In this document: piece after piece, positions 1,596 to 51,440 of the stretch
Layout of the letters: each line of letters opens with the position of its first letter
How positions within the stretch are numbered: the first letter of the stretch is position 1
Source: Octopus vulgaris
Taxonomy: Eukaryota
Assembly: GCA_951406725.2 (NCBI GenBank)
Contig: OX597816.1
Coordinates: 58,032,001-58,096,000 of the forward strand
Length of the DNA: 64,000 nt
Reading direction: 5' to 3'
Translations under genes and position numbers: made by a program
The notes under the pieces: model-generated
Told to the model about the DNA's origin: nothing
Database searches by the model: none
The model's input: the letters and a program-made list of their open reading frames with translations, nothing else

Positions 1596-1646
1596 AGCTT
1601 CTACAGGACTAGAACTGTTTCATTCAAATGAAATCATCAGGAAGCT
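1596..1646 (-). ncRNA. Type I hammerhead ribozyme motif in a PLE-like inverted-repeat remnant (1579-1716)
   Basis: Minus strand reads agcttc CUGAUGA uuucauuugaau GAAA cag uucuaguc cug UA gaagcu: 6-bp stem I, 4-bp stem III, GUA site. Confidence 0.7.
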
Positions 1647-2121
1647 TGGTGTCAAGAATAGTTTCATTTGAATGAAACAGTTCTAGTCCTGTAGAAACTC
1701 CTTCTATAAAATAAATTAATTTACTCTGCTATGTATTGAGTACCTTATTTACTGTGGTTAACCCCGACTCAACCCGGGACCTACATATATATATATATAT
1801 ATATATATATATATATATCTTTCATGTGTTTCTTGTCTCAGTCATTTGACTACGACCATGCTGGAGCACCACCTTGAAGGATTTTTAATTGAATAAATCA
1901 ACCCCGGTTTTTTGTCTTTTTTAATCCTGCACCCATACTAGCAGGGAAGGCAGACGTTAAATGGTTATGTACTTATTCTGTCTGTTTCTTTTGCCGAACC
2001 ACTAAGTCACAGGGACATAAACACACCAACACTGGTTCTGAAATGGTGGTGCAAGAAACCGTGTGTTTGGGAAACAAACTTCTTTACAACACAGCTACAC
2101 CTGCTCCTATATATTTATACA

Positions 2122-2349
2122 GGCGGCGAGCTGGCAGAAACGTTAGTGCGCCGGGCGAAATGCTTAGCGGTATTTCGTCAGACGTTACGTTCTGAGTTCA
2201 AATTCCGCCGAGGTAGACTTTTCCTTTCATCCTTTCGGGGTCGATAAATAAAGTACCAGTTTCGCACTGGGGTCGATGTAATCGACTTAATCCCTTTGTC
2301 TGTCCTTGTTTGTCCCCTCTATGTTTAGCCCCTTGTGGGTAGTAAAGAA
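2122..2349 (+). mobile_element. tRNA-derived SINE (family B, ggcggcgagctggcag head) with 13-bp TSD
   Basis: A-box-like TGGCAGAAACGTTAG and B-box GAGTTCAAATTCC. TSD atatatttataca at 2109-2121 and 2350-2362. Confidence 0.85.
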
Positions 2350-47665: not shown

Positions 47666-48099
47666 GATCGTAAGTTCAATTTCATGACTGGATGGTGCGT
47701 TCTATCCTTGAACAAAGTACTTATTTCATGTTAGCCTAGTTCACTCAGCTGATAATAAGTGAAATTAGTCGCTTGGAAGCGAACTAACTGTGTAATGGTG
47801 CCTCGTTTAACGGGTGAGAAATAACGATAAGCTCCGGCCTAAAGAAGCTATAGGTTGGGTGACACACGTACGTGCGCGTGCGTGTCCACACATATGTGAG
47901 TGTGCGCATGCGTATGTGTGGCGTATATTATATTCTTCTCGAGAGCACTATGGACGCATTTTCACAGCCTGGCAACAAACGCAGAATGTGTGGAAAATAA
48001 AACGTATTAACCATGTTCTAAGTGAGCGTAGCAAGCTAGCAGAGAGGGGGGAGGGAGAGAGAGAGAAGGGGTGGCGGGTATGAGTGTGTCAGTAAAGAA

Positions 48100-51000
48100 A
48101 TGTATTGCGATGTAAGTCAAGTCCCAATTATGAACAGGATCAAAGCCTTCCCACAGGAAACCAACAAAAACATTATGAAGCAGAATATACAACATATCTA
48201 AAGAATATGTAATGATAGAGACGAAACCACAAATTATTTCCTCTCTGGTTTCCCAGTTTTAGCCAAGAAATAATACAATCATTGCCAGGAAAAGAGAATA
48301 TCAAACTTTCAAAGAAAGAAACTTCACTCAATGTTCTTCAAAAATACAAAAAAAGTTAAGGAATGACATGGATAGGTGGATATGGTTAAAGAAAAGAGAA
48401 CTGAAGAAAGAGACCGTGGCGGGAATGATTTTAGCTGCATAGGAACAAGTCTTAAAAGTTAACTGGATGAAGAGAACGATAGAACAGCAAAACTGCTTGC
48501 CGAAATGCAAAGTGTGTGATGATTCAAAGAAGATCAGAAACACACTGAACCAGAATATTTTCTTGTGTGCTTGCAGTCAATGGAAGAATTTACCTCCAAG
48601 ACTTAACCCTCAACATGGTTACTTCAGTCATTCAACTAGACACAACCTAACCAGACAACAGAACTTCTCCCTCCACCCACATTACAATATTAAAAATAAA
48701 TTTAACCCAAACCACATCAACCATAGACAATATAACAACCCTCGGTACAACCATAATCCAGTACGCTATACAGTCACTCCACCACAAACATACTACCACA
48801 GACACACTTTACACCCATTTTCTCCTCAGCGAACCAAATACAATACAGACTTTCCACAACAATCCACTTACTACAACCATTTTTTAGACCTAAATCAGAG
48901 AAACACAGATGTGAAATGGAACAAAATGTACAAGAACAACCGAAAATAATCAACTTATCAAAATCAAAGAAAATCCTAAGTGTTACACAAACTAAAATGC
49001 TAGCAAGAGGTTTAAAGTTCACACCAACCCCTCGCAGATCGAAACCGAATGAAATTAAGGATAACACTATGGATTTCTGCCGAAAATTACGCCTCACAGA
49101 AGAACTTCACAAATACACCAGCGAAGATGTCTCAACAGTAAAAAACAAAAGTGAATACTGTCCTACAAAAGGCAGAAATAAAGCACTTGATGCTTTTTGT
49201 GAACACATTACCAGTTTTCCTTTTAATATCCAACAAAAACAACGAATTAAATCCAACCTTAACGTAAATGAATGGAAAAACCTAATCGAGTTAAAAAATG
49301 ATATAAACCTCACCATTAAAGAAGCCGACAAAGGAAGTGCGGATAGACACAGAGTACTACAAAAATTTAATACTCTCCATGTTGGAAAATAATATTTACT
49401 ATGAGAAGATAGTACAATACAACCCACAGAAGACACTTAAAAACTTATCCTCCTTCATTCAAATACATCGAAAGGATCTCACTAAAAATGAAATTGACTA
49501 TTTATCCAATTTTAAATACAGACCTAGTCTATTCTATGGATTACCTAAAATACACAAAAAAATCTACATATTTGTAAAGCTTGCAAAGTTTCCCCAAGCC
49601 TATGCATCAATGTTCCTCCCCCTACTGACCTCAAACTGAGACCCATCATTGCTGGCCCTGCTTGTGAAACCCACCGTTTGAGCAACTTCCTCGACATCTT
49701 ACTCAAATCGTTTCTAAAATATGTGAAAAGCTTCACCAGGGATGACTTAAACATGCTTAACCACCTCCCGAAGACAATAAATGAAGGAACCCTGTTAGTA
49801 TCAATCAATGTGGTGAATCTGTACACTAATATCCTACACGATTATGGCATAGAAGCAATCACCTTCTGGCTATAAAAATACCCAGAAGTGATCTCAGGAT
49901 GCATCAACCACAGATTCATAATCGCAGCACTCAAATTCATCCTACTGAACAACTATTTCATGTTCGATACAATTTACTATCGACAAAAATGTGGAATTGC
50001 AATGGGAACCCGAGGTGCTCCAGTGATTGCGAACCTTGTAATGGGTTACCTAGAACTTAAAATATACTAATTATCGCTACAAAAATATGGCAGTCATTTC
50101 ATTGCTATTTAAAGGAGAACTGGAAGAGGTAATTGGACAATTGCTTTATACTTTGGAATGATAGCATGGCCAAACTCCTCGATTTTAAAATAATGCTTAA
50201 CAATATTAATAGCAACATACAATTCACCATGGAGCACAGCGGTAAACAACTCCCTTTTCTTGTCATCCTAATTAAAATAGTCAATAACCACATCAAAACA
50301 GACATCTTCTATAAACCCACAGATTCTAAACAATACCTATTATTCAAGTCATGCTACCCCAAACGCATAAAAATTAATATTCCTTATAATCTAGCGAAAA
50401 GAATCTGTACCATAGTTTCGGACACCTATGCTCGTGAACGAAGACTCCTTGAACTCAGATCTATACTAATCAAAAGACATTACCCAATATCATTAATACA
50501 TGATGGCATTAAACGAGTTAAGGAAATAGATATACGAACATTAAGGGCAGTCAACCGAAATACTACACCGGACTTTAAAATACTCCCATACATCTCCACA
50601 CATAACCATAGAAACAACGAAGCCTTCAACATTATCAACCAAAATCTACCCATCCTCACAGGAGATAAACCAATGAACAAAATTTTAGGCTCACACAAAA
50701 TTATCAAAAACAAAATTATTAACCAATGCAAGACTATATCCATTAACAACGGAACCAAAAGTGAAAAACTGAGTTCGACCTAACTGTGGGACATGACTCC
50801 CACCTTTTGGAGGGTTCAGAGTTCCTCTTTAAACAAGGTGAAATATTTAAGATTAAATCAAATTTCACCTCGGAAAAATCTAATCTATGCCATTACATAC
50901 TTAGGGTGTGGTAATCATCATATTGGCCAAACAGGAATATCACTCCATCGAAGAAACCACTCCACAAAGAACAAATCCGCCATCCACAATACAGGCAGAT

Positions 51001-51440
51001 ACAGGTCAGTGAACACATAGATAGGTGTCCTAGGAACCTTAATCTTAATTTCTTAATTTTCCCCTTCTATCAATGTTCACAGAACACCTCAGTACAACAA
51101 AGAATGTATAAAGAGGCAACTTTCGTCAATAAATATCTTCCACTACTCAATATGAACTCTACTACTAACCTTTCGATTAATACCACCCATACATCCCATA
51201 CACCATTCACATTACAGATTTATATCTACCCTAATTGCACCAAATACAGAACTACTTACCTCCCTTACACATAATCTTTTTACTCAGGGACTAGTAGACC
51301 CGACACCGTTCGGTAATCGGTGCGCATTCAAAGGAGTGATCAGTAATTTTACGAAACCGGTATGCTTTTGGATCTCTCTAACAAATCACAATAACGACTT
51401 TTATTACTTTTATTCCTACCTCAGTTCATCTAATTGTATA
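48100..51440 (+). mobile_element. Near full-length Penelope-like retroelement (RT + GIY-YIG), pseudogenised
   Basis: LARGLKFTPTP, IKEADKGS, FYGLPKIHK, LRPIIAG, VVNLYTNI, GIAMGTRGAPVIANL, decayed catalytic motif (R*LDN), QLPFL, NLIYAITYLGCGNHHIGQTG. The 5' boundary is approximate. Confidence 0.9.

What the first reader, a model, noticed from the sequence alone, without database searches (positions are those of the whole stretch)
1596..51368. Many distinct hammerhead-like ribozyme motifs, several with non-canonical cores, in one 64-kb window
Seen: at least seven dissimilar sequence families keep the type I hammerhead layout (stem I, core, stem II, GAAA, stem III, NUH, stem I'). They lie at 1596(-), 16203(+) with 27251(-), 20212(-) with 8349(-), 41615(+), 46883(-), 47169(+) and 51329(+). 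Cores read CUGAUGA, GUGAWCA, CUGUCGA and CCGACGA, and most have a palindromic, loopless or 2-nt-loop stem III. Established: Penelope-like elements carry minimal hammerheads that are thought to act as dimers. Inference: this lineage has a diversified set of variant ribozymes that canonical CUGANGA searches would miss.
Basis: partly seen in the sequence, partly recalled or inferred. Interest (0 to 1): 0.75.

Follow-up and report, generated by a model that had tools for sequence, protein, structure and literature searches.

The report
Variant hammerhead cores in Penelope retrotransposons
These motifs are tail ends of Penelope-type jumping genes that carry the shape of a small self-cutting RNA (a hammerhead ribozyme), and several very abundant families have fixed changes in core letters usually treated as invariant while keeping the rest of the fold, so they are likely slow but working ribozymes, though cutting is untested.

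Summary
All nine motifs are real. They are single, slightly decayed 3' ends of Penelope-like elements (PLEs) or probable derivatives, and the window is ordinary for this 2.8-Gb genome (56 descriptor hits per Mb, 8 in shuffles). The odd cores are family traits, not decay. One 27-letter motif occurs 15,730 times with U6 and 180 times with canonical A6. In that family only the free position 7 varies between subfamilies. C4 stands in 77 of the first 100 of 10,729 copies of a sister family. In one RT-defined PLE clade the 3:8 core pair reads A-U, U-A, G-C or U·G, while stem I covaries and stem III stays palindromic. Minimal dimeric PLE hammerheads, U3-A8 and U4C are in print. I found no natural G3-C8, A3-U8 or A6U, but could not read the main survey (Lünse 2017). 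Nothing here shows cleavage: neither RNA reads nor genomic 5' ends pile up at the cut site. Earlier scan notes cover a U3-A8 family, a decaying-core mini-element and a G3:C8 motif in another genome; none holds CUGUNGA. Verdict: new variant of a known kind.

The parts
1596..1646 (-). Type I hammerhead, canonical CUGAUGA core, 4-bp stem III with near-palindromic 8-nt loop; inverted partner of a truncated + strand copy running to the (TA)n at about 1785
   Evidence: young family (40 scored hits 98-100% alike), mostly inverted pairs
16203..16248 (+). Minimal hammerhead, CUGAUGA, loopless palindromic stem III (ACGU); a decayed inverted partner has its core at 15986(-)
   Evidence: no ORF found upstream of 14 copies
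27250..27295 (-). Same family as 16203; stem I AUCAC/GUGAU, stem III AUAU; a decayed inverted partner has its core at 27672(+)
20212..20261 (-). G3-C8 hammerhead (GUGAACA), palindromic stem III AAUAUU; young element of about 200 nt, no ORF found
   Evidence: 21 of 24 flank-selected loci that hold the core read GUGAACA; 6 of 30 lack it (hand count); no ORF upstream of 40 copies
8349..8399 (-). Decayed copy of the GUGAACA family (reads GUGAAUA, broken stem II); half copy on + at 8429
41615..41650 (+). A6U hammerhead (family core CUGUNGA, stem III ACGU; this copy has CG>CA decay); 3' end of a Zn-linker PLE
46883..46917 (-). U4C hammerhead (CCGACGA), sister family of 41615
47169..47218 (+). Hammerhead with long palindromic stem III; old family; this copy has G at the cut position; about 14 of 30 loci carry C4 (hand count), a second and unrelated U4C case
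48757..51274 (+). Decayed PLE ORF (frameshifts, stops): DKG motif, RT motifs, C-terminal GIY-YIG remnant
   Evidence: the window fragments give no RT or GIY-YIG hit in Pfam; the less broken relative L226 hits RVT_1 (E 1e-6, just under cut-off) and GIY-YIG (E 1.6e-6)
51326..51373 (+). G3-C8 hammerhead (GUGAUCA) in the 3' UTR of that PLE, stem III ACCGGU; the sister subfamily has A3-U8

Best explanation
The motifs are the 3' ends of Penelope-like retrotransposons, or their likely non-coding derivatives, carrying minimal type I hammerhead folds whose unusual cores (G3-C8, A3-U8, A6U, U4C) are fixed family traits, and in the source elements they likely still cut slowly as dimers. Shown: family-level fixation, a place behind the RT/GIY-YIG ORF in three families, a covarying 3:8 pair and stem I, a palindromic stem III, and a partial tandem with two A6U motifs 1,551 nt apart. 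Inferred: two motifs in one tandem transcript pair through their palindromic stem III and cut after position 17, probably helped by the element's own protein as shown for an anole PLE. Selection on source elements would keep the active-site geometry but tolerate slower cores. The lone copies in this window are predicted to be inert.
For: A6U: 15,730 exact copies with U6 against 180 with A6, reversed-pattern control 0. In 57 aligned copies chosen by their flanks position 6 is U50 C5 A2. 0 of 11 core columns fall below 0.8 majority, against 19 of 81 columns of the 3' flank (p 0.008, columns not independent). Position 7 is U30 A13 C8 G6 and tracks subfamilies. 3:8 pair: of 33 exact 32-letter matches, 21 are A-U, 9 G-C, 3 mismatched and 0 G·U (hand count). 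An ORF tree of 50 loci has starred branches that hold A-U, U-A and U·G cores, with G-C inside the window's branch. In 14 hand-picked copies U4, G5, A6, A9 and G10.1-C11.1 are invariant, the first stem I pair takes A-U, G-C, C-G and U-A, and stem III is a palindrome of 6, 8 or 10 nt in 14 of 14. In the 1-Mb sample 38 of 42 motifs in multi-copy clusters have a palindromic stem III, against 2 of 14 singletons. ORF links. C3G/G8C partly restores cleavage in a PLE hammerhead that needs its protein (PMC11167929, passages). U4C and A6C are slower but active natural variants (PMC3088659, section 8 and passages).
Against: There are no cleavage data. RNA reads show no pile-up of ends on two families (read depth is about equal on both strands, so the test is weak). 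0 of 37 A6U copies begin at the cut site, and the other four families tested show no cluster there either. In the A6U family the stem II loop is as constant as the core, which also fits a protein-binding block. One subfamily has an extra letter in GAAA and a stem II of 1-2 pairs. Each 3:8 swap is one inherited event, so there are only about three independent ones. Homodimer folding gave an intermolecular stem III in only 3 of 6 examples, none with the whole hammerhead fold. Hammerhead mutants do not impair insertion in vitro. Four of seven families have no ORF link.
Confidence: 0.7

Rival explanations
1. The fold is kept but catalysis is lost or dispensable in the A6U, U4C and extra-letter GAAA families. 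The motif serves as a binding or handling signal for the PLE protein, and the core changes are tolerated loss of function.
For: Two very abundant families (15,730 and 10,729 exact copies) carry changes at positions where substitutions lower activity. The whole 28-nt block is constant, loop included. Hammerhead mutants insert normally in vitro. Naiad PLEs are reported to lack canonical hammerheads (PMC8557442, passages). No ends at the cut site. An earlier scan note reads another family this way (e1-8672774, unchecked).
Against: Position 7, the free position of the hammerhead core, is the one site of the A6U block that differs between subfamilies. In the window's own clade the 3:8 pair, which belongs to the active site, is swapped in a compensated way. 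The swap argues for catalysis only in that clade, not in the A6U family, where C3-G8 never changed.
Confidence: 0.25
2. The variant cores are post-insertion decay of canonical CUGANGA motifs, or chance matches to a loose pattern.
For: Individual window copies are decayed (8392, 41619, 47175, 51336). Only 3 of 11 folded motifs beat shuffles (z below -2). A loose descriptor gives 8 hits per Mb in shuffles.
Against: U6 outnumbers A6 87 to 1 genome-wide. GUGAACA stands in 21 of 24 flank-selected loci 97-100% alike. C4 stands in 77 of 100, and CpG decay would remove C4 rather than create it. Positions 3 and 8 change together.
Confidence: 0.02

Closest known systems
Minimal type I hammerheads in the pLTRs of metazoan Penelope-like elements (Cervera and de la Peña 2014, PMC4209133; main text parts 1-2 of 4 and supplement file 2 parts 1-2 of 3 read; supplement file 1 not searchable)
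   Same: Type I layout, palindromic loopless or short stem III, extra base after A9 in several families, thousands of dispersed truncated copies in many families, inverted pairs, position in the PLE 3' repeat. U3-A8 is reported there, and UUGAAGA (U·G) appears in Fig. S3.
   Different: The motifs listed in the text of Fig. S3 (56 by its legend) read CUGANGA, apart from two UUGANAA and one UUGAAGA. None has G3-C8, A3-U8, U6 or C4, and no cephalopod is listed.
Small hammerhead variants of PLEs that cleave as dimers (Lünse, Weinberg and Breaker 2017; not held, seen only as a citation in PMC6765202 and PMC10085705)
   Same: Reduced stem III, PLE association and dimer cleavage, as summarised in PMC6765202 (passages).
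   Different: Unknown. It may already list some of these core variants, and this is the main gap in the novelty claim.
Natural core variants of hammerheads (Perreault et al. 2011, PMC3088659; section 8 and passages)
   Same: U3-A8, A6C (kobs under 0.1 per min), U4C in a viroid, and an inserted U in GAAA are described as rare, slower, active variants.
   Different: There they are rare single cases. Here they are majority states of retrotransposon families of up to about 10^4 copies, and A6U, G3-C8 and A3-U8 are not named in the text I read.
Hammerhead of the anole Poseidon PLE (PMC11167929, 2024; passages)
   Same: PLE hammerhead with a C3-G8 pair; the engineered C3G/G8C swap partly restores cleavage; no RNA-seq ends at the cut site.
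   Different: The swap is engineered there and natural here. That element is of the Poseidon clade; these carry a Cys linker before the GIY-YIG domain (Neptune/Nematis type).
Animal non-LTR retrozymes (PMC7229834, passages; bioRxiv 10.64898/2026.07.22.740005, part 1 of 5)
   Same: Type I hammerheads in PLE-related non-coding repeats. A tandem array of about 355 nt occurs in my genome sample (L061).
   Different: The window's motifs are single or inverted copies, not head-to-tail arrays.

Membership tests
Type I hammerhead ribozyme | Three helices round the core in type I order, with covariation | tested here: met
   Stem I and stem III vary with pairing kept in an ORF-defined clade; stem II is only 1-3 pairs there.
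Type I hammerhead ribozyme | Canonical core C3 U4 G5 A6 N7 G8 A9 | tested here: not met
   Met in 1640, 16208, 27290 and 47175; not met at family level in 20254/8392, 41619, 46913 and 51336.
Type I hammerhead ribozyme | Watson-Crick pair between positions 3 and 8 | tested here: met
   30 of 33 matches; 12 of 14, plus one U·G and one A·A; C-G in the A6U and U4C families.
Type I hammerhead ribozyme | G12 A13 A14, A15.1-U16.1 and a non-G at 17 | tested here: met
   Majority 0.88-1.0 in the A6U family. Exceptions: window copy 47175 (G17) and a related subfamily with an extra letter in GAAA.
Type I hammerhead ribozyme | Site-specific self-cleavage after position 17 | not testable with these tools
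   Indirect looks were blank.
Minimal dimeric PLE hammerhead | Palindromic, loopless or short stem III | tested here: met
   38 of 42 motifs in multi-copy clusters; 14 of 14; the 1640 family is only near-palindromic.
Minimal dimeric PLE hammerhead | Two copies in one transcription unit (tandem or partial tandem) | tested here: inconclusive
   One clear partial tandem with ORF among 20 fetched stretches, of which 9 were picked as close pairs (L331); none in the window.
Penelope-like element, EN+ (Neptune/Nematis type) | RT followed by C-terminal GIY-YIG with a Cys linker, hammerhead in the 3' repeat | tested here: met
   Families of 51336, 41619 and 46913 (one locus, L349, with a 2.9-kb UTR partly shared by L333). 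The clade name rests on the linker (PMC8557442); no tree with reference PLEs was built.
Penelope-like element, EN+ (Neptune/Nematis type) | Attached ORF for families 1640, 16208/27290, 20254/8392, 47175 | tested here: inconclusive
   No ORF within 1.5 kb upstream of 14, 40 and 21 copies of the last three; 2 of 67 for 1640, judged separate insertions. Inverted truncated pairs and (TA)n ends fit PLE mobilisation.
Non-LTR retrozyme | Head-to-tail tandem units each with a hammerhead | tested here: not met
   No tandem array covers any of the nine motifs.
Rfam hammerhead families | Score at or above the gathering threshold | tested here: not met
   0 matches in the window; no hammerhead at E<=10 round 47175 or 51336.

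The most novel reading that the evidence does not exclude
The CUGUNGA motif is a working hammerhead without the 'invariant' A6, carried by one of the most successful retrotransposon families of this genome. Together with natural G3-C8, A3-U8 and U4C cores it would show that Penelope elements tune their ribozyme down, probably under control of their own protein, rather than lose it. This genome would then hold all four Watson-Crick versions of the 3:8 active-site pair as natural, expanded families.
Probability: 0.35. Interest if true: 0.68.

Novelty: new variant of a known kind. Interest (0 to 1): 0.5.

Why it matters
Why PLEs keep a hammerhead is open, since cleavage is slow and not needed for insertion in vitro. 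This genome offers matched natural pairs for a direct test: A6 against U6 sister families, U4 against C4, and A-U against G-C subfamilies that differ only at positions 3 and 8 over 32 letters. Activity would widen the hammerhead consensus and mean that CUGANGA searches undercount genomic ribozymes (24 of 56 hits in my sample are strict, chance hits included). Inactivity would show that a ribozyme fold can be kept for a non-catalytic role.

Tried and rejected
Rfam: no hammerhead among the 150 listed of 244 weak matches, none at gathering score (68), none locally (69, 70). A DNA search with the 46913 copy returned nothing although the family is common; patterns were used instead. Pfam on 11 window fragments gave no RT or GIY-YIG hit. 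The run search listed no holder on record as RNA. Three raw RNA runs of a coded organism cover two families on both strands with no piled ends; this is no evidence on cleavage or on element-driven expression. A metagenome scan for relatives found none, so the spread of these cores to other animals is untested. Single-strand folding beat shuffles in 3 of 11 motifs, and dimer folding was mixed. 'The window is a ribozyme hot spot' was rejected. 'Seven unrelated families' was reduced to six lineages. Literature: searches for A6U (one twister paper, listing only), for G3-C8/A3-U8 (50), C3-G8 compensation (55), core variation and hammerhead plus octopus (8) gave no natural report. These are exact-word searches of open papers only. 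Lünse 2017, Przybilski and Hammann 2007, Nelson and Uhlenbeck 2008, Martick and Scott 2006 and Arkhipova 2017 were not held. An octopus repeat annotation has no mention of ribozymes (PMC13282606, passages).

Full report
Observation. All nine motifs parse as type I hammerheads at the coordinates given. A relaxed descriptor found 6 hits at score 14 or more against 0.67 in shuffles. It missed three named motifs (20254, 41619, 51336), each with a one-letter stem defect that most relatives lack. Rfam sees none. The window lies in a 2.8-Gb animal genome. In 100 evenly spaced 10-kb stretches the descriptor gave 56 hits against 8 per Mb in shuffles. The window is therefore ordinary, and a rough extrapolation gives on the order of 10^5 motifs genome-wide. 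Of the 56, 24 have a strict CUGANGA core. 42 fall in 10 multi-copy clusters, and 38 of those have a palindromic stem III, against 2 of 14 singletons.

What carries them. Upstream of the 51336 motif the window holds a decayed PLE ORF (48757-51274) with the DKG motif, RT motifs and a GIY-YIG remnant. A less broken relative hits RVT_1 and GIY-YIG and has a Cys linker of the Neptune/Nematis type (type after PMC8557442). Walking upstream from the 41619 family reached RT and GIY-YIG remnants and a partial tandem with two CUGUUGA motifs 1,551 nt apart (L331). The 46913 family joins a related ORF through a 2.9-kb CA-rich UTR in one locus (L349). For the other four families I found no attached ORF. Their inverted truncated pairs and (TA)n ends match the PLE insertion pattern described in PMC8557442, so I infer that they are PLE ends or non-autonomous derivatives.

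Are the odd cores decay? No. For A6U, one 27-letter pattern occurs 15,730 times with U6 and 180 times with A6. Position 7 in the first 100 listed is U40 A25 C22 G13 (hand count). In 59 copies not chosen by their core (57 aligned there), position 6 is U50 C5 A2. No core column falls below 0.8 majority (0 of 11), against 19 of 81 in the 3' flank. Position 7 is the only site of the motif with subfamily-level states, and these cluster on a tree of the flanks (111 columns, weak support). For U4C there are 10,729 exact copies, with C77 U21 A2 in the first 100 (hand count). About 14 of 30 loci of the unrelated 47175 family also carry C4 (hand count). For G3-C8, GUGAACA stands in 21 of 24 flank-selected loci that hold the core.

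Covariation. A 32-letter pattern left open at positions 3 and 8 has 33 matches: 21 A-U, 9 G-C and 3 mismatched. On a tree of ORF DNA from 50 protein-selected loci, starred branches carry A-U (two groups), U-A and U·G, with G-C inside the window's branch; 19 loci gave no automatic parse. In 14 hand-picked copies U4, G5, A6, A9 and G10.1-C11.1 are invariant, the first stem I pair takes four Watson-Crick forms (11 of 14 paired), and stem III is a palindrome of 6 to 10 nt in all 14. The swaps amount to about three inherited events, not many independent ones. With canonical C-G families, all four Watson-Crick forms of the 3:8 pair occur in this genome.

Mechanism. Shown: fixation in families, position behind the ORF, covariation and palindromes. 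Inferred: in tandem transcripts two motifs pair through stem III and cut after position 17, as proposed and weakly shown for PLE hammerheads (PMC4209133). The element's protein probably assists. In an anole PLE the hammerhead needs the protein, and C3G/G8C partly restores cleavage (PMC11167929). A6C and U4C are slower but active natural variants (PMC3088659), so I expect slow cores. The window copies are lone and mutated and are predicted to be inert.

Results against. RNA reads show no piled ends on two families. No cluster of genomic 5' ends lies at the cut site in five families. Dimer folding was mixed, and only 3 of 11 monomers beat shuffles. In the A6U family the stem II loop is as constant as the core. 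One related subfamily has an extra letter in GAAA and almost no stem II. Hammerhead mutants insert normally in vitro. A kept fold without catalysis therefore remains a serious rival for the A6U and U4C families (0.25).

Comparison and novelty. The system is known: minimal dimeric hammerheads of PLEs. The motifs listed in Fig. S3 of PMC4209133 include U3-A8 and U·G, but no G3-C8, A3-U8, U6 or C4. My exact-word searches found no natural G3-C8, A3-U8 or A6U. The largest survey (Lünse 2017) and one supplement file of PMC4209133 could not be read, so priority is uncertain. Earlier scan notes on other DNA describe a U3-A8 family, a mini-element with a changed core and a G3:C8 motif in another genome; none holds the word CUGUNGA. 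Position numbering follows the standard hammerhead scheme, recalled and as used in the papers read. Verdict: new variant of a known kind, interest 0.5.

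Noticed in passing
window 2-4918: Near-perfect inverted duplication across about 4.9 kb (arms 2-160/4760-4918, 1782-2121/4431-4770, 2474-3125/3657-4325; 96-99% complementary); a recent fold-back event or an assembly artefact.
   Followed up: no
L207, L217-L220, L238-L240 (3' UTRs): A PLE subfamily with an A3-U8 core has an extra letter in the GAAA block (G-U-AAA, G-G-AAA, A-GAAA) and a stem II of 1-2 pairs, yet spread with end branches of 0.01-0.03.
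   Followed up: partly
window 1596-1785; L301-L330: Most copies of the 1640 family are inverted pairs that turn round at or near the 5' strand of stem I; GUGAACA copies mostly start 10-25 nt before stem I. The 5' ends sit at the edge of the ribozyme, not at its cut site.
   Followed up: partly
L061:2300-4520; L088, L139, L158: Tandem array of about 355 nt with canonical hammerheads, and a U3-A8 family; both retrozyme-like.
   Followed up: no
L159:1271(-), L160:3609(+): Two identical-core motifs GUGGUCA (G3-C8 plus A6G) with long stem II and stem I; possibly another double variant.
   Followed up: no
L349:550-3450: 2.9-kb CA-rich 3' UTR between the GIY-YIG end and the U4C hammerhead, partly shared by L333 at 72%.
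   Followed up: partly
window 45027-45431(-) and 28870-29325(-): Mos1-like mariner transposase remnants (HTH_48, Transposase_1).
   Followed up: no
window 904-1608(-), 17067-17570(-), 25495-25926(+), 60321-60983(+): Frames that look like LINE reverse-transcriptase C-termini by eye (recalled resemblance); no matching Pfam family.
   Followed up: no
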